Shown: positions 29,224 through 46,287 of the stretch, piece after piece
How the letters are laid out: each line of letters opens with the position of its first letter
Position numbering within the stretch: position 1 is the first letter of the stretch
DNA from: Adineta vaga
Lineage: Eukaryota > Animalia > Rotifera
Assembly (NCBI GenBank): GCA_021613535.1
Contig: CP075497.1
Coordinates: forward strand, 4,712,001-4,776,000
Length of the DNA: 64,000 nt
Direction of reading: 5' to 3'
Position numbers and translations under genes: made by a program
Notes under the pieces: generated by a model
The model's input: the letters and a program-made list of their open reading frames with translations, nothing else
What the model was told of the DNA's origin: nothing
The model's database searches: none

Positions 29224-31345
29224 ATGATTTATGAAGATCGATTAAATCCACCATCGAATTGGCCACCATTAGTTCGTTATCCAAAGTATTATTCTGATCG
29301 TGTAAGTAGATGTTTTTTATTCATTCAAAATTAACTGCCAGTCTACTTCACTTACAAAAGAGTGTAACAAATGGGTTTTTTTGCATTTTTACATTAAGGA
29401 AAGAGAAGAAAAAAAATGTTAAAGCTCTTAAATAAATTCACACGAAAATACAAAGATGATGAATTATAATGCAAATAGTATGTATCTTGAAAAATGAATT
29501 GAATCATAATCAGGCTAATTTTCCGCTAATCATTAAAAAAAATTATACAACAAAAATTTTTCGATTTCATTTAAAAGAAAAAGAACGTTGTAGAAGAACA
29601 ATTTGTAATCTAGTTTTTTTTTCAATTTTTTGTTGTTGTTATTGTTGTTGTTTCATACGTTTGAAGTGAGCGTGAACAGCGCAGAAATCCTAAAGGGTAT
29701 ATATGCATATATATGTTTGCCGCAAACGTTTCAGACGACTTTAAATGACTTTAAGGTAAACTGTGCGAAGACCATTTGTTAAATAAATATACATAGAGCA
29801 ATAGTCTATGCTGACGATCAAACGACATATATTTATGGCAAGAAAGATTTTTTTTATTATCTTTTGATTTTCTTTCTCTTTTTATAGCGTTTAAGTATTC
29901 TCTGGTTTCTTGCATTTGCTGCACTTTCATTAATATTAAGTGTGATTGCATTGATTATTGTTTTCGCTGTTGAAAATGCTTGGTTTCATGATAATTTCGA
30001 AAATTCGCTAACTAGATATGGCCTTTGGCGATTATGTTTTGTATCAAATAATACATGTGCAAGTTGGTTTGTAAGTGATACGACAAATGGTGCTCGTGTT
30101 GAGCGACGTCTCAGTCAATCTAAAGGTAGGAAGACGAAAGAAGAATTGAAAATATTCATGTGAACTAGTTTTCAGCGGGTATCAATGCATGGCAAGCACT
30201 TGAGATTATTTTTCTATTTTTAACAACAGCAACATTGATTATTACTATTGCTTCGATTATTTGTTATCGTCTACGAAACAGTCTTCATTATTATTTGGCT
30301 ATTCTTGCCGTATTTTGTGTTTGGCCTGCAGGTAATTGATAACAAGATCATGAAAAAACAAATTTCTGTATTCTTATTTAGTAAGTGTTGGAGTTTCGGC
30401 ATTATTTGTTTTTGGTTTTGCTGTATACAATGTTGCGACTCAACCACGAGAATTAGATTGGTGTTTCTATGTGAATTTAGTAGCTGTGATTCTAACACTT
30501 GTTGCAGCGATACTTTTATCGATTTATGATGCACTCTTGAAAAAACCAATTAAGTATGTTTGTGATAAAGTTTTTTTTTTCTCTCGAATTCTATCGGTTT
30601 GAATTATTTCGTATAGAAATATTGATGATGAAACTGTTGTTGAAACATTTGCTGATATCAATGGTTATCCAGCAAATTTAAGTCCATCAACATTTGTTGT
30701 TGTCAGACGTAATAAGAGAAAACGAAATAAACCTTATGATTATTCACAAACACTTCATCCAACTCGTTATTTTCCAAACACAACAACAACAACTAATCGA
30801 GTGATAACTAATGATCGTACTAATCCAAATCATCAAATGCTTACACCTTATACATCTGTCATTACTACACAGGAAACAAATTCAAATATTCAACAAACAC
30901 CATCCATACCTTATCGAACTACTGAATATAATCGTTCAAATCTAATAACATCACCATCAACAACAACGACAACAATTACACAACCATATCGACCACCTGC
31001 ACCAATTTATCAATATGAAACACAATCATTTCCAACAAATTTTCATCAAACAGAACCAGATACATTCAATCGTACGATAGGTTATAATTCGCGACATAAT
31101 AATGATTATACACAACATGGTTTTTATAATCCAATTCGAGCGAATACTACGAACGAACTGTCGAACAAAAACATGAACCACGTGTATTACATTATTATAC
31201 AGGTTATGATTATTTTGCTACAATAGATCCATCTGATACTGCCGTATCAAGACATCATACACTTACAAATGGACCTGGTACAGCAATAAGATACGGTGCT
31301 AATCCTTCTTATCATTCAAATGAATATATCAAAAGTACAATGTAA
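29224..31345 (+). CDS. Claudin/PMP22/EMP-superfamily 4-TM protein with long Tyr/Thr-rich tail (apparent frameshift near 31140)
   Basis: W...YGLWRLC..C motif, four hydrophobic helices, in-frame splicing from ATG 29224. The tail either stops at 31226 or, after a -1 shift, continues to TAA at 31345. Confidence 0.75.
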
Positions 31346-32182
31346 AATGAATAGACAGAACAATCAAAAATCGTCTATGTATTAGATATGAAGTAGATAA
31401 GTTATAATCATTTTTCATGTTTTTATACAATTAAGTTGTATCTTTTATATTGGATGCTTTCGGCAATTATATAGTTCTTTATCTTATCATCTCACTTTTT
31501 TTGTATGTCTTTTTTGCTAAAATGAAATCTTTTGGGGAAATGTTTGTTTTTTCTTACTCTATTTAAGTATGCTTATGTACGAAAGAAATCATTTGTCGCT
31601 ATTACATTACATGAAGAGGAATTCATTTTCTCCTCCTCCTCCTCCTCTTCTTCTTTTGCCCATCAATTGCAGTTTGGTATCTTTTACAATAAAAGAATTG
31701 CTTAGTATGAAAAATTCAAATATTTATTCGTAAGAAAAAATAAATCTCATCTTGTATTCATTTAATTCTCATTTCACTTCAATAAACTCATTTGTATGTT
31801 TTTCTTCTATCCTAAACGATCTATTTAACATTAATGATTAACATATTTTATTAGATAATAAACAATTCCATATGTGTGTAATCATATTCAGAGAAATTTT
31901 AGTTTACTGATTTGAATCTACATGTTGATATTCTTCTTGTCTTTATAGTCTCTAATTTATCTATATAAAATCTTGAAAAACATTTTCATATTTTATTAAT
32001 TTTCATTCAAATAATCTGATGAACAATTTGTACATACAACATCAAAATTAGAAAAAAAAACATGCATACTCTTATGTCATAAAATAGCTTGATTAGACAT
32101 GATTACAAAAAAAATATCACATTTGATTTCTTATTCATTAGAAAGACGCATGGATAAGAAGAACGATGATTTCCTAGCTGAA

Positions 32183-35100
32183 TTAACTTTCAAGTAATTT
32201 TCTTTTAATTTCATCGAAATCTGATTGTAATGACATTGTTAATTTTCGTAATTCATTATGAACACGTGCATTAGCTTTCTCAAAAACATCACGTAATTCA
32301 TCTGTTTTACGCATTAAACGTGTATGATCATTCTCTTGTAATAAAGGTTCACCCGCTCGATCAATATGATGTCGATAATATCCAACTTCACAAGTGACAA
32401 ATTCTCTTGTTGCATGATGTTTTGCAGCTCTTGCTGATTGAATGCTACTTTGCAATTGATTATTACTATTTCGATATGGTAAGACAATTGTTGATTGAGG
32501 AAGATCAACACGCGATAGGCGTAATTCTAATTTCCATAGGTAATATTTTCTAATTCCATGAATTTGTGTTACACGACTTTGAAAGCGTGGAAAAAATGAA
32601 CGTTTTGATAATGCTAAAACTAATCGAGAACATGTTTCACAAAGTAAACCAAATTTAGCTTGTAAACCAAGACATGTTTCAATACGTGCACGTAAATGTT
32701 CACGTTTTGCATTCAAACGAAAACGTTTGACATCAGATACGGCTAAACCAACCTAAATCAAACAACAAATATTTTTTAATAGAAACAAAATATAATTGAT
32801 CATACCATTATATTCATAATAACAATATTCATTGTAAATACAAATGTTGAATAAAGTACCATTGCTGCTTCACTACCTTGTAAAACTTTTCCATGTGGAA
32901 AAAAGAGATCATCAAAATCATATTCTCCTGTTAACATTGCTAATGTTTTTGGTATAGAGTAAAATATAGATGTAAATTGTGGTTTCTTATTTACAAATAA
33001 CATATGAAAAGCAATAATATATCCAATCCAGATAAATACATAGATAAGACAAAATTTCAGAAATGTTAGAAATACACTAACAAATAGTAAACCATATTTA
33101 CCGATTTTTAATGCATTCATAAAAACAAGTAATAATAGTGTCCATACACTTGCCATACCCAAAGCACCTGCTTCCCATTGCCATTTACAACGAAGACCTG
33201 TACGTTGTGAGCAATGATTAAGATCCATAGCGAATAGAATAGCACAGACATACGTATGTAATTCTAGGAAATTGACGAAAAAACCACGAAAATATTTTTC
33301 ACGTTGTGTAATTAATTGAATAAATTCTTTTAATAATGCAATACCCGAACAAAGCAACAGTAGAGCACGAAGAAATCCTAAATATACATGTATTCCATGA
33401 AATAAATCCAACTTTTCAATAAATATCAAATCAAAACTTACGAAGTAAAACATTTCCTGGAAGAGGATCAATTGGATCCATTGTCAATTTGTCACATAAC
33501 TGTTTACAAGTAATATTTAATTCATCATAGTATGAACGTGGTTGTAGGTGAACCTAATGCAACACCTGTATATAAACATACAAAGAATACTTGTGCACAT
33601 AGGATTAATAAATATAGGAAATTTCCAAATAATTGAAATTTTAAATCAACACACATTTTAACAACATCATGATCATAAACTGGTGCATGATTGGCTTCAG
33701 CAATTAAAGATAATGGATGTTGTTTTAACCAATTCGATGTTGAAAATCGTTTTGATCGACCAAATATACAACGATGATGAGATGGTCGTGCTCGTAAACA
33801 ATCGTCAACTACGGATAAATCAACGCCATCTTCACCAACAAATTGTTCGAGTAACAGTGGCACTAATGGTAGCATTTCCGTCTGATAATAAGAACAAAGA
33901 AAAAAAAGAACCTAATTGAGTTATCTATTCATAATTTAATCGTATATGAAAGACATTATTTCCGCTTTTCTAACACTAATTATTCACATAGAAACAGTAC
34001 TTTTCTTAAAATTAGAGATAGATCAATCTTATTGTATAATATTTAATCGATTCGACTGAAAACCATATAATATGATGGAGTGAGTAAATATATCAATTAG
34101 AGAAGAGAAAAAATGACTTCCTATGTTTTATTTTGTACTCGATGAACTTAGCGTTTGTAAACTTACCATTGTTAACATGCGTTGTACAGGTGTTTGATCA
34201 TAACTTGAACCGGAATAGGCAACATTATAATGTTTTAAGAAAGTTTTATACGATCGATAAAGTTCTCGTTCATCTCCGGGAATTCGTACACTAATAAATG
34301 TTCGAACGAAATCTGATTTTTTCAATGCTATTGAATATTCAAGAACATTATATCCACGACCGTTGACATCGATTTGTATTTGAATAATCGCAGCAAAACG
34401 TTGAGTATCCGAAACAAAAAATGATGCAATATCTAATTGATCTTTATCAATAGTTGTCTTTAATGAATCAGCATTGATAAAATCAGTTACATCAACATTT
34501 CGATGTAACCATTTACTACTTAAGATATATTTAATACATTTTAATGATCCTTTTTCAATAGCAATAACAAATGGTGTTTTACCATTGGAATTCTTTTCAA
34601 TCAATCGTTGAAGAGCCTACAAAACATTTTAATTTTTGATTATTAAAAAACAGAATGATATTAAATTGATTGGACTTACTGTCCCTCTTGCAGCACTCGA
34701 ACCCAGTCGTTTCAATAATGATATTGCTCGACTTAAAACAATATCATTTCGTTGTTCTGTTGCATAATGAAATACACTCGAACCTATATTATCTTTACAT
34801 GTTAACGACAAAGGATCTTGTTCCATTAATAATGTTGCTGTTGATGTTGATCCAGCTTCAATCGCACAAAGTAATGGAGTTTGTCCACGTGTATTTAATA
34901 AAATACTAGCATGTGATGTTTCAGTAATTAACATTCTCATAATTTCTTCATGACCTAATCGAGCAGCTAGATGTAGTAATGTTTGTCCTTGAGATTCACC
35001 TGTCTCAAGACTTCCTTCTCGTTTCGATGTTGTCGCCATTGTCGTTGCTGTTATTGGTCCATGATCAATCCCGTTCGATTGTCCACCAGGTAAGTCAACA

Positions 35101-35953
35101 ATGGGCGCTGAAACTATTGCTGATACAGTTGAATGTAGATTTTGTACAACACCTTCTTGAATACGAGCTAATCGTTCTTGAAATTGCCTTTGTTGACGAT
35201 TACGAATGAAAGCTGGACGGCGACCATAAGGTCGATCTTCATCATCCCAATCAAGTAAACTATCAATAATTGGTTGTGGTGGACTGATACGAACTGATGG
35301 AATTGCTTTTGTAACTGTTAATTTATTTTCACTTGATGATGTCTGTTCCAGCAATGGAGTACTTGGTACTGATTGAGAAACTTTCTCGTCTCGAGTAGTT
35401 TTATCACTATTCGACGATGTCAGTGGTTTATGTGTACGAGATTGTTTTGGTGGAATGATAAAGATTTGAGTTGGCATTATAACCTAGCAACGAAAGAAGA
35501 GATGAGAATTCTTTTAAAACGAAATATATTACAATAAAAACAAAACAATTAGATTATGATTTGATATATTAAATTACTCATATATATATACAATTATCTA
35601 GTCGAAAAATATTGATATTGTAATATGATCATAAAACAATTCTACTTCCCTATTCCGCTGTCAATAGGTTACAATCAATATGAGTGAAAAAGTTGATTCT
35701 TTTCCATTTCTTTTCTAGTCACTACGATGTGTTTATGTTAAAGAAAATATATGCCAACATGTTAAATCAAGCGCATAGACAACAAAATGAATAAAAACAT
35801 CTGGATCATTTTTTTCTTAATTAATTCTATCTGTTTACAACTAACTATTTGCACTTATCTTTGGTATTTTTTCTATGAATAAATGTCTATTGAGAGATGT
35901 ATATAAGCATTACTTACGCCACGTGCCACTGTATATTTTTGAAGATTGCTCAT
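32183..35953 (-). CDS. TRPA-family ankyrin-repeat cation channel (apparent +1 frameshift at ~33542)
   Basis: Exon 1 MSNLQKYTVARG (35953-35918). Ankyrins (GQTLLHLAARLGH, GQTPLLCAIE, GKTPFVIAIE), S1-S6, pore KTLAMLTGEYDF, S6 IMNIMVGLAVSDV, TRP-like helix and C-terminal coiled coil. Confidence 0.9.
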
Positions 35954-37031
35954 AATAAACTATTTCTAATTAAACGATTTGTAAAATATAAATAATATAT
36001 AGAAGAAGATAATGTCAATCAATGTATGATGTAGAAAAATAGATTCTCTCAGAAAAATTCGTGAATATATAAAGCATTGCAGATATAAAGAAATGCATTG
36101 GATAATCATATAAACATTAGTTGCATTGAATAGCTGATTTGTTTCTTTGGTTTTTTTTATTTTACTTATTGCTCTTTTTCACTTCAGTGAAGAGAATAAG
36201 AAGAACAAGAAAAAAGAAACGACTTGCATTTTATATATACTCCAAAGAAAGAAGAAGAAGAAGAAAAAACATAAGACCTTTTTCTCTTTCTCGTCTTTTT
36301 TCTCTGATTCTCACTGTTCTATTCGTTTTTTCCCTCTGCCTTATCCAACTGTCCCTCTTATACGCTTTCTCATTAAGACAAGTAACTACAACGCATAGAC
36401 ATCATACATGTTTGTATTCTCTTCGTTGATTTAACCCGATCTAATCTTTCTTTTTACATTGATAAGAATTGATGTTTAAACACATTTTTTTTTCTTTTTA
36501 TTTCTACATTCATTTTCGTTTTTGAGAAAAAAATTCTCTTCGAATGAATGGGTAAGATTAAACTGACTTTTTTTTCTCTGGTATTCATCACGATATAAAA
36601 AATTATATACACAATTTACTTCTAGTCACTTATGCATATGATAGTAACCAGAAATATGTACTTCTAATCTTTTTTTATATTCATTTGGGAAATAATGTTA
36701 TTTCATTTATCAAAAGTACACATATAAAACATTTTTTATCAGATAACAAATAACTTATCCGAAAAAAATGATAACTAACTTCTGCCATTTTCGACAAAAT
36801 ATAAGAAAGTAATCTTCAATACATATGTGTATTGCATATTTATTCTTCTATTTTCGTCTTAATGAAGAACAACAACAAGAAGAAAGATCGTTCTTAGTTC
36901 TATGTATTTAGCTTGTATTTTTTGGCAAACTATCTATAATATCATTCGGAAGAACAACGAATATCTTTGAATAGGTATATAAAACACAACAATAAAGTAA
37001 AATAAAAACATAGAAAGAACAGAAATTTTTT

Positions 37032-40000
37032 TTAAATATTGACCATTGTATCCGAATGTTGTGGAATAAGTTGTGTTTTTCGTCGTTCATTCGGATTTTC
37101 ATTAATATTAGTTGGATTATTTTCATGAACAGTTGATGATCGTTTTTCGACCATCATCGGTAGTTTTTCTTGTTCATCTGATGGATGGTTATTTACACTA
37201 GTTGTATGTATTTCTCGTGTTGGCCAAAGTATTGCTTGTATATGTCGTAAAGGTGTACGATATTGTCGACCTTGTACGGCACCAATTGTTTGACGACGTC
37301 GAAGAGTTTTAGATTTTATCGATGTTCGATTTAAAATAGGTGTAGTTGGACGGATAGAATCAATTGGGACTGAATTTTCACGTTCATCATCATTCCAATC
37401 GTTATTATCATCGTCAACATCGGGCTGTACATGAGAGAGAGAGAGATTAGAATGTTTAGAAAATATTCACCATATGTTTGATTAGTCAGCAAAAAGCAAA
37501 TTTTAATATTAAAATCCAGACAAAAGATTGAGTTAATCATGCAAACATGCAGCAAACAATCAATTTATCATCCATTAAAAATAACCGACACTGACAGGTT
37601 TTATTTTGTCTAGTTAGAATAGCGACTTACACTTACATTTATTTACAGGTTCATTTCTTTCTAGAAGAGTGATATATTTACGATTTGATTCTTTTTCGAC
37701 GAATCATCTGTTTGTTTTTATGAATAACTTATAGAATCATGTAAAGAATTTACTTTTGTAGATCATTGTTTAAATAAGTAACAATTATGTCGAAAAAAGT
37801 ACTCATTATTCAACATTCATCAGGTGTTCGTCCTGCCTATGTCACTGAATTCTTCTTAGAACATGGAATTCCGTTTGAAATTTTACCTATTTACGAACCT
37901 GATCGTGAAGAAGACTTTCCTGACTATCAAACAAATGCCTATTCAGCTATAGTCAGTCTCGGTGGTCCACAAGGTACTTATGAAGATGAACAATATCCAT
38001 ATTTAAAATGGGAAAAATCTTTTCTTGCTGCTCAACTTGCTCTTCAAACACCTATTCTTGGTTTATGTCTTGGCGCACAACTCCTTGCTGATGTCATCGG
38101 TGGACATGGTCATCTAGGAAAATATGGTTATGAAATTGGTTATGTTCAATATAAACTAACGGAAGAAGGTAAACAAGATTTGATTCTCTCAAAATTATTT
38201 GAAGCACAACAAGATAAACCTTTACTAATTATGCATCATCAAGATTCATTCGATTTACCATCGAATGCAACGATATTAGCTTATACGTCAAATAAATATA
38301 TAGCTGCATATCGTTTTGGTTCTGCATATGCAGTACAATTTCATCCGGAAGCATCATTTACTGAATTTGATGAATGGGTACAACGAACACGAACAAAACG
38401 ACCAGAAGCATATAAAAATCTCGATATCGACGAAATCTTACATCAAGCTAAAATAAACGAATCAGAAGCGAAAAAATCAAGACAACTATTTTTTCAAACG
38501 TGGTGGAATATGATTTCTAAATCCTAATTTTTCAACTTTACAATAAAAAAAATCTTTCTCAGTAAAGAAATTTGTTTTTCTTTTTTTTTGTTAACACTTA
38601 TTTATTCCATTATTTTCGATAATCATTCATCAACTTAAGTAGATCTATCTCATTCTGACAGTTCTATTAAGTATACTTATAATAATATGCATATCGTTAT
38701 TTTCTTTTTCTTTGCACATTTATTGTGTTTCAAGCATAACTAATTAACACGCAGATTGTCATATCATTAGATTTATGTACGCTCTTGTTTTCTAAACTTC
38801 GAATGTCATCAGGAGAGTTGATGTACAAAAACATATGGTCGAAAAGATCATATTTAACGATCGCGAATGTCATTCAAAGCCGTAAAAACCAAGCTTATAT
38901 GCATTTCTCTCTCTATTATATGTTTTATTCAATTAATAGTAATGTTTTGATGACTAGATTATAATTGTGCTGATTCAACGACAAACAATGCAGATAATAA
39001 AAGAATGACTAGTATGCAGAGAAGAAAAAACAGAGATATGAGCAAACAAGTCAATAGGTAGCATACAGCAAATAGGAATATGTGCCAATCAATAGAATAC
39101 ATCTAATCAATATGTGCTATTACTTACTAAACTGATTGCATCCATAGGCATTGCTAATTCATCGAGTCCAGTCGTTGTAGTTGGCGAATTAACACGCTTA
39201 TTAGTTCCTTGTGTTTGTTGATTACTCATCGTCGATGAATTATGACGATCATTCTTTCCCCATCGTAATCGATTAACATTTTTGAAAATATTCTTCGATC
39301 GTTTCGATGAACTTCCTGTTGTTGCTCCACCAACAGCTGAATTACTACTTGATAAGCCAGTATTTTGATGTCCAATTGCTAATCCATTTGTTGAATGACT
39401 TATTGCATCTTCCATTTGTTGTTGATCGAAACTATTCATTCGACGAGTAACTGGTCGATGTTTATTTGTATCACTTAATGCTCGTGGTAATTTTCTTTTG
39501 GCTTTTAAAATAATATTTTTTCGTGCATTTATACATCGAATATATTCATCACCAGTAGCATGAAGAAATGGTATACTACCAACCGATGCAAAACTTGTAT
39601 TTCCATCACCATAACAAGCTAATTGATTGAAATCTGTTTGTTCATTGACACCATTTTGTAATTGAGTAACAGGATCGATGATTACATGAATAATTTCTCT
39701 CCAAGCAATATGAGGTTGCCAATCAGGATTCGTTGAATTTTGATAAGTTTTATACATTGTTGTTTTCATATTTGTCATTAATTGATCGAACACATTCGCT
39801 AAATTTCTTACAACACAATAAGTTAAAATATTATGTCGAATATCACTAGGTTTTGTTCGACATGAATCATAATAGATTAAAGCATGATTTTTAATTAAAT
39901 AATCTAATTCAATTTTCGCATTACGACGTACACAACATGCAAATGCATGAACAAATATACGTTGAATAGTTGCAGAATTCTCTTCAATAAATGGATCACC

Positions 40001-42486
40001 ATCGACTTGATAATATCGACTTAATGTTGTACATAATGCTAGAAATGTTGAACAATTATTTTTGATTTGTAAAACACCATCTAAAAAAGATCCCGGTCTT
40101 ATGATTATTTTTATGAAATAAAAACAAATTGATTTTTCTTACCAAAACAATGTTCTAAATGTTTTTCAGATATTGTACCCCAACAATGAAGATTTCGTCG
40201 TTTAAAAAATGAATCAAATATGATATCCATCATTATGGTTGAATCAGTCATGCATGAAATATAAAATGGCGTTTGATAAACATTAGCTAATGCATCCGCG
40301 AATGGATCACCAAATGTTTCGAAAAAATAATAATCAACTTGCATATATAAAGAATGTCCTGTTTCAGAACTTAAACGATATTTAACAATCACTTCCCAAG
40401 TCACATCACTACGTTTACGTGATGAAAGCACATCACCATCAGGATATAAGATTGTTGGTCGACATCCAAGTGCATTTTCTAATTCAACAAAATGTTCTTC
40501 AATATTTTCACGTAATAAATGAAAATCCCAACGTGGATATTGAAGAAAAATATCGCGAAGAACAAGTACAGTTAGAAAACAACGAACACTAATTGGTGTT
40601 TCATTTGGATGATCATCATCAGACGCAACTGATTCATCATTTTTTGATGTATTCAATGTCACTGATGAACCTGACATTGCACCCGACACGGGTTTAACAT
40701 CTTGATGAACAATAAATCCATCAAATTGATAGAATATAAATGCTGATGGACCTTCCGTTTCTGTATCACGATAAACTTGAACATGTTGAAATGATGCATA
40801 ATCTTTTTTATGCATATAATCAAGTACACGACTAAGAATACATTCATGATTAAGACCATCAAATTCCACTAAATGTGAATCAAGTAAAAGTCGAACAACT
40901 TCTTCATAATCAGTTCTATCACCACATGTTGCTAAACATGCAAGAGTTAATGGTGATGGAATAAACATTTGTTTCGTATCAAATCCATGAAGAATTTTTT
41001 CAATAAATTCTTCACGTTGAATCAATGGTAATGAACTTAATTCAAGTTCATCAGCATCGGGAATATCACTATCATTTGTTGTATTATTCAATGTTCCAGT
41101 ACTTTGATGATCATCTGTTGCATTATTTGTTGCTAATGATGGTTGATCTCGTGCTGTATGAGAATCCATATGTGAACGAAATTTTTGTTGTAAATATTGT
41201 TGTCTTATCATTATATTATGACTATCTAGTGACAATGATGGTTCTAATGATGGTAATGTCTGTTTACGTTGTTTGGTTGGATGTGTATCACGTTCAACAC
41301 CACATGCTTTCAGAATATATGCACTAGGATTGTATTCAAATTCTCGTTGTTTAAATGTAGGTATTAATAATGATAATGCATCAAATTGATTTGGTAATGT
41401 TAAAGATGTTAATGTATCACATATTGTTTTAACCTACACATGAAGAAATTAAATTGATTGTCTTATTTTCAATATAAGAATTTAAAAAAAAATAACTCTA
41501 CCGTTTCTTTATCACCAACATAAGCTGCATAATGTAATGTTAACCATCCACGTTCTGTCACAGAATTCAATGACATATCTAACCAAGTGCCTGTGCCATT
41601 ATACAATTTATCTAGTAAACTTGCTCTTTTATGTGCTATTGCAAAATGTATTAAATCACAATATTCATATCGACATAATTTCATGAATGATGTTTGAAAA
41701 ATATTAAATATTTTTGAATTCTCACTAATAATTGGTTTATCTATTTGTTCCATATATAGATATGTATGTAATGATGTGTAGGATTTAAATAATCCATGAA
41801 CTGGAGAATGAAGATATTGTTGTTCTAATTGAACTTGTTCTTCGACTAATGTTGATATATTTGATGTCGTATCAATCAAATGTTCAAGTGCAGAAAGAAT
41901 ATGTTGACGAGAATTATCATTATCTATTATAAGATGTTTAGCTGTGAGAAGTTTCTTTTTTATACGATGATACCAACGCCATAGGGGATAACGATCTCGA
42001 GTGTAACCATGAGCATCATATAATAAAAATAGAAGGAAATGAAGATTATTGAAATGATCAGGTTTTCTTATGACACCATTTTGAATTTCTTGAAGAAGAT
42101 CAAGTAAAAGATTATAAGTGAGTTCTTCTATTGGCAATTCTTGATTACCAATTGATGTCATTAATGTTGGCACACGATCTAAATTCAAATCATTTTATTA
42201 AAAGTTCGTTTTTCTTAATCGAAAAAAATTAATATTAAACAGATTTTTATCATCAATCTAAATGATTCATAATGTCATTTTCTATACATTTAGACTTCTC
42301 TATTCTTATGGTAATCATCAAATGATTTGATGACGTTAAATAAACTTGACTATATTCTCATCATCTGTTTATTTTCAACTAGAATAATGATAATTAACAT
42401 TAAATGTAAAGAAAAACAAACTTACGTGGTGATAAATAATCTTTGCTTATATCTTCAGCAGATGCATGTAAACGTAATGTATTCAT
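37032..42486 (-). CDS. Large uncharacterised protein with ankyrin-like repeats (host gene of the nested GATase)
   Basis: Five exons join in frame from ATG 42486. Ankyrin-like GWLTLHYAAYVGDKETVK and PSPLTLAC..VVRLLL. The last exon 37424-37032 (131 codons, missing from the ORF track) is joined by the phase-0 intron 39127-37425. Confidence 0.75.
37787..38527 (+). CDS. Stand-alone class I glutamine amidotransferase (GATase1/GMP-synthase-like), intronless
   Basis: VLIIQH, SLGGP, PILGLCLGAQLLA (Cys nucleophile), VQFHPE (His-Glu). Single 246-aa ORF. Confidence 0.93.
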   Translation: MSKKVLIIQHSSGVRPAYVTEFFLEHGIPFEILPIYEPDREEDFPDYQTNAYSAIVSLGGPQGTYEDEQYPYLKWEKSFLAAQLALQTPILGLCLGAQLLADVIGGHGHLGKYGYEIGYVQYKLTEEGKQDLILSKLFEAQQDKPLLIMHHQDSFDLPSNATILAYTSNKYIAAYRFGSAYAVQFHPEASFTEFDEWVQRTRTKRPEAYKNLDIDEILHQAKINESEAKKSRQLFFQTWWNMISKS

Positions 42487-43919
42487 TTTTCAGTACGAAA
42501 ATTTAACCGATAGGATAAATTGTCTTATACTTATCATACAATGTTGTTCCTGCAAGTATTAAGAACATGCGACAATCTCCAATGAATCGACTTCACCACA
42601 CTATGTTTCTTACTACTACTACCATGACTCGTCGTCATCTTCTTCTTCTTTTTTTCTTTCTCTATATTTTGTATATTTTCTTCTTTCCGTTCTTCTTTTC
42701 ACACTGGTCTGCTTCTTTTTTTCTCCCCTTTCTCTCTCCTACCATTACATATACTTATTGAGAAGTTTCATATGATGCGTGCAAATTCTTTTCTTTTCTT
42801 TCGTTCGTTCTTTCTTTCTTTCTTTCTTTTTATTCACAAAACATTTGCTGTTTGTTCTGACACGTACTGCATGCTTTTTGAGGTGATTACATGCATTGAT
42901 TCAATTCTATCTACTTAAAAAGAAGAACTAAAAACAAAATTGCGAAGAAAAGGTCAATGAAAATGCTTTCTACATTTGACGTGTTTTTGGTGCCTTGCTT
43001 ACATTTCCGTCAATCAGACAAGGAGAAAAAAGAAAAATTTATTGACAGTTACTAATAGTAAATAGCGATGGAAAAGATATAACGATAACTTCCCAAATAT
43101 TTTTATTATGCAGAGGAGATAATATACAACGAGTCTTATCAATAATATGCATAACCAATACTCAAACTACGTCTTTCTCATGATGAAATATTTCTTTAAC
43201 AAGATGTTTGCTCGTTAATTTCAACTCCTATAAGAATATTCAAGATACAATATACATACATTCAAATACCTTTATTTTTATTTCACTGTTTGATTGGATT
43301 CTTTCTTATCAAAACATCGATTCACCTTTTTTCCCTTTCTCTCTCTCTCTCTCTGTGTCTGTCTCGTAAGTGTATTCTAATGTTTGTTTCCACCTATAAC
43401 GAAAAACAAATACGAAGTAGAAAAAATAATATTTATATGTACACCTTTTCAAATATAGTCATGTGATATTCTTTGTATAATTCACATGCAATCATCCGTG
43501 TAAATGAAACGAAAAGAAAAATATATTCTGATGTAAGAAATATCACTTCGTGGTAAAAGTTAGATGTACTACTTTGACATACCAATGACTCCTCAATATT
43601 GCTTTTTTTTAAATCGAAACAAACTGAAACTCATATCATGAAAGATTACGACTTTATATCATGTTGTTTCATATTCTCTTATCAATAAAATATGTAAAAG
43701 TATTTACGAAAAGAATCGAACAAACAGTCTTACATATGACATGATAGAATAATATCGTCTGTATTCAAAATCAATAATAACCAAACTGAGTGATTTTCAT
43801 TGTTTGTTACTTACGTTCTTTCGATGTTGTTCCTTAATAAATTGATTCAACGATTCAGAAAAAAAAGATGCTACTTATATAGGCAAAACCGAATAATTGA
43901 TTTTTCTTTCTAGTTCTAG

Positions 43920-44480
43920 TCAACACTCAGAGAACTTCATCAACATGCTGATCACAGCCCTTCTCATTTCCTTGTATTTAGAATAGGAGAAAGCAGTTTT
44001 TATCCGTTGGAATAAATGTTTCACAACACTTTCTCTAGCGTATCTTGTACATATTCAAGTTTTATCATTTGATTTGTATAAACCTTCAGTTTACTCTCGT
44101 CTATTCATTGGAAACCTTGTTTGAGACTATTCTGAAAAAAAGTTTTCTTAATTGTGTTCGGCCAAGATCAGCAGGAAGTTTTGCTTCTTTACTTCCTTCT
44201 TATCTGAAAGAAACCAGAACGATTCATGAGCCATTAGATGTACAGAGGAATGTCCAATGCCGCCAGGAATAAAAATCAATGTTGACTTGACATAATTCAT
44301 CCTATAAAGAATACAAATAAAATATAATCTTACGCTAAGAATAATATACCACAGCGGATAGAAATGTCACACAAAATATACATGCATCTTCATGACTAGT
44401 CTGTGTTGACTTTTCCAATAATGCGTCAATTTCTGCAACAGAATATTGTTGGAAAGCTCGTCATCGAGTTTATACTATCA
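43920..44480 (-). pseudogene. Possible degraded coding remnant
   Basis: Less AT-rich than the flanks. Broken frames such as RAFQQYSVAEIDALLEKSTQ.. and ..IFIPGGIGHS.. are separated by an intron-like segment at ~44303-44349. Identity unknown. Confidence 0.25.
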
Positions 44481-44937
44481 TTGATACATCTATCCCAGTC
44501 TTCAAGTACTTTCTAAGTATGAATTTAATCATGTTATGAGAGTATGTGAGTATTATCAATATAGTATTCATTTTAAGTCTGTCGATATGTATTTTTGATG
44601 ATGGAAATAACCACGAGTTGAAGATCGAAGTATCAGTATACGAATATCTCTAATAATGAAAATACAGAGGTCACTAATCTACGGTTGATATGCATAAAAA
44701 TCAATTTTTCATCTTTTCATTTCATTTCGACCACTAATATGCTGTCAAATCGAAATAGGTCTCCTTCGAATGAATTACAAATACGAATTAATTAGCTTTG
44801 ATAGTATAACTTAAAACTTGATTTTTTTTATTATATCTGTTGATAAATTATTCACCAAACATTTAGAACCATGTTCTATATCTAAAAAATAGTTGGACTT
44901 TATCTTAAACTATTTAGATAACAACGAGTAAGAAGGG

Positions 44938-46287
44938 ATGAATTTCTTATCAAAATCACCTTCGTTTGCTCGACAATTATATTGTACAATAGCTGTGCAA
45001 CGTTTGAATACGATCAATCAATCCATTCGTTTCATTTCACAAAATGTATGTAATACAAAGTTTGACCTACTTTTGTTTTTGAAACTCATTGTTATCTTAT
45101 TTTAGACAACAGCAACTGGTAAAAATAATCAACAGCCATCGCAATATCGATATACTTTACCGAATGGAAGTTTATCGAATGAACAACGTGAATCTTATGA
45201 AAAAAATGGTTTTATTGTTATTCGTCATTTAGTTAAACCTGAAACACTTGATCATTTTCGGTAGAAAAAAAAAACCTTGTCACATGGAAAAAGTATTTTT
45301 ATTTCTCTAGTCATCGTTTTCAAGAAGTATGTGTTGGAAAAGTTAAAGTGCCAGGCATGACTGTCATGAAAGATGTTGCTATTGCTAAATCTGAATTTGC
45401 TGATGGTGAAAAAGCAATAACAAAAATTCAAGATTTTACATTGGATGATGAACTTTTTAAATATTGTTGTCTACCAGAAATTGTTGCATACGTCGAAAAT
45501 TTTACGGGTCCAAATATCATGGCTATGCATACAATGGTAATTATTTTGTTTGCACATGAAAAGTATATATCGTTTTCTTTAGTTAATCAATAAACCACCT
45601 GATCCAGGCACACAATCATCTCGACATCCACTTCATCAAGATCTTTATTATTTCCCATTTCGACCAGCAGATCGTATTGTTTGTGCATGGACTGCAATGG
45701 AAAAGATTAATCGAGAAAATGGATGTCTTGTGGTCATACCAGAATCACATCAAGGTGAACTTGAAGTACATGACTATCCTAATTGGAAGGGTGGAGTCAA
45801 TAAAATGTATCATGGAATACAAAAATACGATCCAAATCTAAAGATGGTACATTTAGAAATGGAAACAGGTATAATTTCTGATCAAAAAGTTAACTTATGA
45901 GATTTTATTTCGATTAGGTGATACTGTTTTCTTTCATCCATTACTTATTCATGGCAGTGGAACAAATCGATCAAGTAGATTTCGAAAGGTATTTACATCA
46001 ATTATAAAGTCAATTTGTTATATGTGTTCTATGCTATCGAATAGGCTATTTCATGTCATTATGCTGATTCTGCATGTGAATATATTGAATGTAAAGATAG
46101 TGTACAAGATTTCATTTCGAAAGAAGTAACAGATATCTTTCGACGACGAACTGGATTTACAGATGCACGATTCGAAGTAAGATTAACTATGAAAGTTTCA
46201 TTCATATAAAATTTATTTCAAAATAAAAAATAGGATGTTTGGAGAATTAAAAGTCGACTTGTTAATGGTGAACGAATCAATTTGTAG
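44938..46287 (+). CDS. PHYH: Phytanoyl-CoA dioxygenase
   Basis: [61 protein letters not shown]2-like RLNTINQSI in the N-terminus. Confidence 0.95.

What the first reader, a model, noticed from the sequence alone, without database searches (positions are those of the whole stretch)
37425..39127. Intronless bacterial-style glutamine amidotransferase nested antisense inside a host intron
Seen: the minus-strand ankyrin gene has a GTAAGT donor at 39127 and a pyrimidine-rich acceptor at 37425 that join in frame (..AISL|PDVDDD..). This 1.7-kb intron, huge for this window, fully contains the plus-strand GATase, which has its own AATAAA at ~38542. It is the only enzyme gene here without introns, yet its codons match the host. 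Known: stand-alone GATase1 proteins of this type are typical of bacteria, archaea, fungi and plants, and bdelloids carry many foreign genes. Inference: a horizontally acquired gene that landed in an intron and was ameliorated.
Basis: partly seen in the sequence, partly recalled or inferred. Interest (0 to 1): 0.75.

Follow-up and report, generated by a model that had tools for sequence, protein, structure and literature searches.

The report
Foreign enzyme nested in rotifer intron
An intronless glutamine-amidotransferase-type enzyme gene, likely acquired horizontally from a microbe early in bdelloid rotifer history, lies backwards inside a spliced intron of a rotifer gene, next to a stop-carrying mini-exon, and is found in only one of the two ancient duplicate copies of that gene.

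Summary
RNA-type contigs join 39128 to 37424 across the GATase. The 246-aa GATase has an intact Cys-His-Glu triad, no introns and host-like codons. The nesting is old: it is seen in 4 independent metagenomic bdelloid loci, and the enzyme and host records are neighbours in five named species, including early-branching Didymodactylos. The duplicate host copy is empty: 6 independent loci have a 51-236 nt intron and the same cassette exon. No named non-bdelloid animal relative appeared. The nearest relatives are not named bacteria but an unnamed, protist-like environmental clade (37-44% identical), beside Acidimicrobiia. So foreign origin is likely, but 'directly bacterial' and 'landed here' are unproven, and the empty copy may reflect a loss. 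The enzyme is probably a stand-alone glutaminase or gamma-glutamyl hydrolase (untested). Ancient foreign genes are common in bdelloids and nested genes are common in animals; the filled/empty pair is a useful natural experiment. Interest is moderate.

The parts
37787..38527 (+). Intronless class I glutamine amidotransferase-like ORF, 246 aa, triad C94-H186-E188
   Evidence: (PF00117, 1.6e-18); covered by RNA-type contigs with no joint inside it
38542..38547 (+). AATAAA, likely the GATase polyadenylation signal
   Evidence: an X6 contig ends at 38565 (weak hint)
37425..39127 (-). 1703-nt intron of the exon-skipping host isoform
   Evidence: joint in X1, X2, X6; GT..AG
37661..39127 (-). 1467-nt intron upstream of the cassette exon; this is the intron that holds the GATase (51-236 nt in the empty host copy)
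   Evidence: joint in 4 of 4 runs, three studies
37637..37660 (-). 24-nt cassette exon with an in-frame stop (KEMNL*), predicted to give a 999-aa host isoform
   Evidence: joints 39128/37660 and 37637/37424; a stop-bearing candidate counterpart in 10 of 10 related loci examined
37425..37636 (-). 212-nt intron downstream of the cassette exon, with two TGCATG (RBFOX-type) motifs
   Evidence: joint in X2, X6; TGCATG in 9 of 10 homologous introns and 0 of 13 other window introns
37032..37424 (-). Last coding exon of the host (130 aa); the skipping isoform is predicted at 1124 aa
   Evidence: homologous exon in the duplicate host copy
39128..42486 (-). Upstream host exons (42486-42426, 42178-41502, 41433-40143, 40080-39128) of a protein found only in bdelloids or unnamed records, with a weak ankyrin repeat
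   Evidence: joints
39107..39127 (-). Six-codon donor read-through ending in a stop (VSNSTY*), conserved only in the GATase-bearing copy; candidate third isoform of 1000 aa
   Evidence: 5 of 5 filled loci against 0 of 6 empty loci; the 6 named filled-class proteins end the same way
38924..38929 (-). AATAAA 199 nt into the intron; candidate intronic polyadenylation signal of the host
   Evidence: at +162 to +199 in 5 of 5 filled loci; not shown to be used
38600..38700 (.). Conserved non-coding block just past the GATase 3' end (approximate limits)
   Evidence: aligned in 4 of 5 filled loci; no Rfam match at E<=1

Best explanation
An intronless class I glutamine-amidotransferase-like gene, likely acquired horizontally before the sampled bdelloid lineages split, lies antisense inside a spliced intron of one of two ancient duplicates of a bdelloid gene, and it is predicted to act alone as a glutaminase or gamma-glutamyl amide hydrolase. 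The family likely arose in bacteria (nearest named relatives: Acidimicrobiia) and probably reached rotifers through, or alongside, an unidentified protist-like lineage. The gene appears to be transcribed as its own unit: a start near 37770 and a polyadenylation signal at 38542 are inferred. The host spliceosome removes the antisense copy either in a 1703-nt intron (long protein) or in a 1467-nt intron ahead of a stop-bearing cassette exon (short protein). That cassette exon is shared with the empty duplicate, so it likely predates the split of the two copies, and it is probably RBFOX-regulated. Shown: splice joints, ORF, triad, fold, nesting in relatives, filled/empty pattern, tree grouping. 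Inferred: transfer, donor, activity, regulation.
For: Splicing. Nesting between the same host exons in L001, L006 and L011, and up to the cassette donor in L012. GATase and host accessions lie within 9-20 numbers for 29 of 32 GATase accessions listed for five named species; two models of one gene differ by 17-19. Filled loci form one host clade, 98/95. Bdelloid GATases are one clade (100/100) and group with the unnamed clade (99/95) to the exclusion of 20 bacterial-side rows; the result is the same with 45 GTDB rows. No non-bdelloid animal is named among the 120 + 120 hits listed. The model (pLDDT 96) is closest to stand-alone enzymes: DnfC Z 29.6, TM1158 28.5, MsGATase 27.0, GGP1 25.2, against GMP synthase domains at about 19-20. 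The triad is intact in 49 of 52 bdelloid-clade proteins.
Against: The nearest clade has no taxonomy; 'protist-like' rests on long low-complexity extensions and on absence from the prokaryotic rows. Only about a quarter of database hits carry names. The GTDB scan covered 13 of 64 parts. The AU test does not reject the unnamed clade being monophyletic without the bdelloids (p 0.215), so direction and donor are not shown. The runs are 'RNA?' guesses and unstranded contigs, and most joints have a 24-nt short side. No enzyme assay exists. No A. ricciae GATase was named among the hits although its filled-class host was; this is unresolved.
Confidence: 0.72

Rival explanations
1. Direct bacterium-to-rotifer transfer: the unnamed neighbours are unsampled bacteria, or separate recipients of the same bacterial gene.
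For: The nearest named relatives are Acidimicrobiia at up to 35% identity; the nearest Atlas clusters are 91-100% bacterial; the AU test leaves a sister position open.
Against: None of 45 GTDB rows falls in the unnamed clade. Its members listed come only from ENA, JGI and Logan contigs of at most 13.4 kb, none from NCBI genomes. Many have eukaryote-like extensions.
Confidence: 0.2
2. On polarity only: the GATase was already in this intron before the host gene duplicated, and the empty copy lost it (rather than an insertion into one copy).
For: The Didymodactylos host, which neighbours a GATase, is equally distant from both copies (66-72% and 67-72%; 73% between the copies). D. carnosus is sister to the other sampled bdelloids (PMC7943196, passages).
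Against: Five of six empty introns are 51-94 nt, an ordinary size with no visible remnant. Tetraploidy is thought to predate the family split (PMC5916493, passages). The Didymodactylos branch is long and the tree has no outgroup.
Confidence: 0.45
3. The nested copy is a secondary relocation (retro- or DNA duplicate) of a foreign gene that first landed elsewhere in the genome.
For: Rotaria carries further GATase copies with no listed host accession nearby; the P0044/P0050 lineage branches early among bdelloid copies; the gene is intronless.
Against: The host-linked copy is the one shared by all five named species tested, including Didymodactylos, and no second Adineta copy was named.
Confidence: 0.3
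4. Vertical inheritance of an old eukaryotic gene lost in the other animals.
For: The closest clade may be eukaryotic and is unnamed.
Against: No named animal, choanoflagellate or fungal sequence is among the listed hits. The clade sits among or beside actinobacterial sequences. It would need many independent losses.
Confidence: 0.07

Closest known systems
Stand-alone class I GATase-like hydrolases: Alcaligenes DnfC (8khs), Thermotoga TM1158 (1o1y), M. smegmatis MsGATase (7d54); NCBIfam PRK07053
   Same: Same fold over 229 residues (Z 27-30, rmsd 2.1-2.8), same triad, single-domain size. DnfC hydrolyses glutamine and glutamate gamma-hydroxamate (PMC11440038, passages).
   Different: 24-28% identity in the structural alignments; below the PRK07053 cut-off (119 against 250 bits). 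No partner synthase or dnfAB context in the rotifer locus, and no consistent synthase beside 8 actinobacterial-side relatives.
Arabidopsis gamma-glutamyl peptidase GGP1 (MEROPS C26)
   Same: Fold Z 25. Triad and S1 residues match by motif (Q98, Q152, D153 against Q104, Q156, D157). An Arg lies 12 residues after the catalytic Glu (R200; 39 of 50 bdelloid proteins), the same spacing as GGP1 R206, which is needed for glutathione cleavage (PMC12958103, passages).
   Different: About 20% identity and a separate lineage. The Arg match is by spacing only, with no residue-level alignment seen, and it is absent in 28 of 28 of the nearest non-bdelloid proteins.
Ancient horizontally acquired genes of bdelloid rotifers
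   Same: Non-metazoan affinity and presence across genera; about 80% of tree-supported candidates are shared by four species (PMC5916493, passages).
   Different: This one has stayed intronless in its coding region and is nested in a host intron, in one duplicate only.
Nested antisense intronic genes of animals (recalled; no call)
   Same: An intronless gene on the opposite strand inside an enlarged intron.
   Different: The nested gene is likely foreign, its start lies 94-145 nt from a regulated cassette exon in four loci, and an empty ohnologous site survives for comparison.
Foraminiferal class I GATase acquired from bacteria (bioRxiv 10.1101/2023.01.27.525846, section 23 read)
   Same: Same Pfam-level class; reported as repeatedly transferred into and between protists.

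Membership tests
Class I glutamine amidotransferase-like (PF00117) | Profile match above the curated cut-off | tested here: met
   67.5 bits against 22.8
Class I glutamine amidotransferase-like (PF00117) | Cys-His-Glu triad with nucleophile elbow | tested here: met
   GLCLGAQ and QFHPE in the window and 5 of 5 filled loci; C94 and E188 invariant in A3
Class I glutamine amidotransferase-like (PF00117) | Glutamine or gamma-glutamyl hydrolysis | not testable with these tools
   needs an assay
GMP synthase glutaminase subunit (automatic database label) | Curated model score; fused or paired ATP-pyrophosphatase domain | tested here: not met
   TIGR00888 54.5 against 172 bits and NF001975 46.8 against 198; the ORF is single-domain; lower Z to GMP synthase domains
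PRK07053 equivalog | Score above the cut-off | tested here: not met
   119 against 250 bits
GGP1-type glutathione gamma-glutamyl peptidase | S1 glutamate-binding residues and the S2' arginine | tested here: inconclusive
   S1 motif present; the Arg matches by spacing only
Nested intronic gene | Whole gene lies between spliced exons of another gene | tested here: met
Nested intronic gene | Independent transcript from the opposite strand | tested here: inconclusive
   RNA-type contigs cover the ORF but are unstranded
Horizontally acquired gene | Groups with non-metazoans; no metazoan orthologs | tested here: inconclusive
   No named animal hit outside bdelloids and the nearest named relatives are bacterial, but the sister clade is unnamed
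Horizontally acquired gene | Integrated in the genome, not a contaminant | tested here: met
   inside a spliced intron, conserved linkage in five named species, collinear neighbours in L011
RBFOX-regulated cassette exon | Alternative inclusion and a conserved downstream UGCAUG | tested here: met
   both forms in X2 and X6; motif in 9 of 10 homologous introns; the motif's meaning is recalled
RBFOX-regulated cassette exon | Inclusion depends on RBFOX binding | not testable with these tools
   needs knockdown, CLIP or a minigene

The most novel reading that the evidence does not exclude
The foreign gene rewired its host. Only the GATase-bearing duplicate has a conserved six-codon read-through ending and an intronic AATAAA that would stop host transcription about 360 nt short of the GATase's 3' end. 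In the same copy the cassette peptide lost its conserved sequence while the GATase promoter came to overlap that exon. Host isoform choice and expression of the foreign enzyme would then be coupled, and the enzyme may have become a glutathione-cleaving peptidase through a bdelloid-specific arginine.
Probability: 0.2. Interest if true: 0.72.

Novelty: new member of a known kind. Interest (0 to 1): 0.47.

Why it matters
It is a checked case of how a likely foreign gene was integrated in a gene-dense animal genome without breaking its host. The filled and empty duplicates, kept across Adineta and Rotaria, allow a direct comparison of an intron with and without a nested gene. Public gene models of the filled copy all stop at the donor (6 of 6 named filled-class proteins), so such nestings are probably hidden in current bdelloid annotations. 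It also warns that a 'bacterial-style' bdelloid gene may have its closest kin in unsequenced microbial eukaryotes.

Tried and rejected
No whole genome is held for this window, so the window's own duplicate locus could not be read as DNA. No run is on record as RNA; the runs were judged RNA-like because they skip GT-AG introns in several genes. A possible 52-nt 5'UTR intron in the GATase, suspected from the sequence, had no joint. Rfam gave 0 matches at E<=1 for 36700-39400. A viral scan gave only distant GATases (best E 1e-18 at 28%), with no sign of a viral vector. The host fold was poor (pLDDT 40), with no Foldseek match at E<=0.001; the Atlas gave only weak ankyrin-like leads. Neighbourhoods of 8 bacterial relatives (54 ORFs scanned) gave no consistent partner: 3 of 8 lie beside an AMP-binding acetyl-CoA-synthetase-like gene and 2 of 8 beside pur genes. 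The GGP1 residue alignment could not be displayed. L005 was rejected as an independent locus (99.1% identical to L011 over 6.5 kb); L010 and L014 were counted with L009; L007 is cut before the intron. Evidence for the read-through isoform from contig ends was rejected: the X6 end at 38914 coincides with a variant site at 38913, and an X5 contig runs on to 38825. Four look-ups of earlier findings returned nothing. Literature searches listed no paper on this gene or nesting. Supplements of PMC3499245 (9 files) and PMC11258130 (12 of 16 files) had no 'amidotransferase' hit; tables keyed by gene id could still list it as foreign.

Full report
The observation. The window is bdelloid rotifer DNA; from the relatives found it is most likely an Adineta (inference). 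The plus strand carries an uninterrupted 246-aa ORF at 37787-38527. It matches PF00117 at 67.5 bits, has GLCLGAQ and QFHPE, and is followed by AATAAA at 38542. On the minus strand a GTAAGT donor at 39127 and an AG acceptor at 37425 bound 1703 nt and join in frame. Of four RNA-type runs laid on 30000-46000, three (X1, X2, X6; two studies) join 39128 to 37424, and all four (three studies) join 39128 to 37660. In a second laying, X2 and X6 join 37637 to 37424, X5 does not, and X12 covers all 30 bins with no joint. The runs are labelled RNA by guess only, are unstranded contigs, and most of these joints have a 24-nt short side (54 nt for one in X5). They do skip canonical introns in several neighbouring genes. 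So the 1.7-kb intron is real but alternative: a 24-nt exon at 37660-37637 reads KEMNL-stop. The predicted host proteins are 1124 aa (skipping), 999 aa (inclusion) and 1000 aa (donor read-through). Codon use of the GATase is host-like but at the edge (GC3 0.138 against 0.07-0.13 in 9 stretches; GC-rich bacterial relatives 0.70-0.90).

The arrangement is old. The GATase has 51 full-length or nearly full-length relatives at 57-78% identity; the named ones are Adineta steineri, Rotaria species and Didymodactylos carnosus. The host has 19 long relatives, all bdelloid or unnamed, in two clades. For five named species, 29 of 32 listed accessions of the main GATase clusters lie within 9-20 numbers of a host accession of one clade: A. 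steineri 8/9, R. sordida 9/9, R. sp. Silwood1 4/4, R. socialis 6/6, D. carnosus 2/4. Two models of a single gene differ by 17-19 numbers, so these are consecutive records. Silwood2 and R. magnacalcarata were not testable. This shows adjacency, not nesting. Nesting was read from DNA. Of 14 metagenomic host loci, 5 have an antisense intronless GATase after the penultimate exon (L001, L005, L006, L011, L012), 8 have none (L002, L003, L004, L008, L009, L010, L013, L014), and L007 is cut. After merging near-copies there are 4 filled and 6 empty loci. The filled loci, the window and the GATase-adjacent named hosts form one clade (98/95); the empty ones fall on the other side, with weak support (73/87). 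L010, L011 and L014 were left out of that tree as near-copies. L011 (filled) and L010 (empty) share the window's downstream neighbour gene, as expected of ohnologous blocks in a degenerate tetraploid (PMC5916493, PMC7943196; passages).

The cassette exon belongs to the host, not to the insert. A stop-bearing candidate exon of 22-65 nt lies before the last exon in 10 of 10 related loci examined; these were picked by eye from the sequence, without RNA support, and the L011 acceptor is uncertain. In empty copies it encodes a conserved peptide (DERxLxHS-stop type in 5 of 6) behind an intron of 51-94 nt (one of 236). In filled copies that intron is 1047-1467 nt and only the stop is kept. TGCATG occurs in 9 of 10 downstream introns (chance 0.003-0.17 each by shuffling; homologous, so not independent) and in 0 of 13 other spliced window introns. 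From recall this is the RBFOX element, which promotes inclusion when it lies downstream; I saw only a search listing on this. The GATase ATG lies 94-145 nt from the cassette acceptor in four loci (22 in L011), so its promoter likely overlaps the exon (inference). Filled copies alone keep a six-codon read-through with a stop at codon 7 (5 of 5 against 0 of 6), with synonymous changes and a TAA/TGA swap, and an AATAAA at +162 to +199. RNA support for this third ending is weak, and general conservation of the intron start could explain it.

Origin. No non-bdelloid animal is named among the 120 hits listed in each, but only about a quarter of records carry names. A search of all cluster representatives puts the best non-bdelloid relatives at 37-44% identity. 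Ten of these were looked up and none has a taxon. The best GTDB matches reach 35% over most of the length and are mostly Acidimicrobiia; 13 of 64 parts were scanned. In a 117-row tree (45 of the 80 GTDB rows) and a 48-row tree, the bdelloid proteins are one clade, grouped with the unnamed set (SH-aLRT 98; 99/95) and with no prokaryotic row inside. The best trees nest the bdelloids inside the unnamed set, but the AU test does not reject a sister position (p 0.215). Many unnamed members have long low-complexity extensions, so I read them as microbial eukaryotes; this is inference. A Rhizaria preprint reports a class I GATase moved from bacteria into several protist groups (section 23 read); I could not test whether it is this clade. 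Foreign origin is likely (about 0.9). Passage through a eukaryote is somewhat more likely than direct bacterial transfer.

Polarity is open. The Didymodactylos host neighbours a GATase but is equally distant from both host clades, and that species is sister to the other sampled bdelloids (PMC7943196, passages). Either the gene entered one of two existing duplicates, or it preceded the duplication and was deleted cleanly from one. Rotaria also has free-standing, tandem and fused copies, so this intron need not be the first landing site.

Function. The model (pLDDT 96) is closest to DnfC, TM1158, SMU.1228c, MsGATase and plant GGP1 (Z 25-30), and less close to GMP synthase domains (Z about 19-20). 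It misses every NCBIfam cut-off, so the automatic label 'GMP synthase' is not supported. The triad is intact in 49 of 52 bdelloid-clade proteins (two lack the searched motif). The glutamate-binding residues described for GGP1 (PMC12958103, passages) match by motif. I commit to a stand-alone cytosolic hydrolase of glutamine or gamma-glutamyl amides (about 0.7). A glutathione substrate is a lead only: R200 has the spacing of GGP1 R206 and is present in 39 of 50 bdelloid proteins and 0 of 28 of their nearest relatives.

Verdict. Its ingredients are known: ancient foreign genes in bdelloids, and nested antisense genes in animals. I found no paper on this locus (two sets of supplements searched, four files of one not searched, preprint supplements closed). 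What is new is the documented case: a filled and an empty duplicate kept across genera, next to a conserved alternative exon. New member of a known kind; interest 0.47.

Noticed in passing
L005/L007/L011:4099-6894 and L009, L010/L014:4039-6927: In these loci the host introns at window 41434-41501 and 40081-40142 are absent (one ORF spans three exons) in both duplicates, and the neighbouring gene in L010 also spans several window exons. This suggests an intron-poor bdelloid lineage that still keeps the GATase intron and the cassette exon.
   Followed up: no
L005:6474-8512: L005 matches L011 at 99.1% up to inside the GATase, then continues into a different GATase 5' end and unrelated DNA: a chimeric assembly or a recombinant with a paralog.
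   Followed up: partly
window 38600-38700: An AT-rich non-coding block conserved in 4 of 5 filled loci just past the GATase 3' end, with no Rfam match.
   Followed up: partly
proteins P0015, P0017, P0044, P0060 clusters: Rotaria has extra GATase copies: tandem ones, 459-461-aa forms, and a partial copy fused to an NAD(P)-binding domain. P0017 and P0024 lack the searched QFHPE motif.
   Followed up: no
window 35483-32186 (-): The downstream neighbour is a multi-ankyrin gene with a membrane-like C-terminal part (TRPA-like by my reading; only the ankyrin repeats were tested). It is syntenic in both duplicates.
   Followed up: partly
proteins P0121-P0124, P0131, P0136: Public models of the GATase-bearing host all end at the donor read-through and omit the last exon, while 8 models of the empty copy (plus P0135) include it.
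   Followed up: yes
protein P0121 cluster (A. ricciae): A. ricciae has the filled-class host, but no A. ricciae GATase was named or 37: a possible loss, or hidden under an unnamed representative.
   Followed up: no
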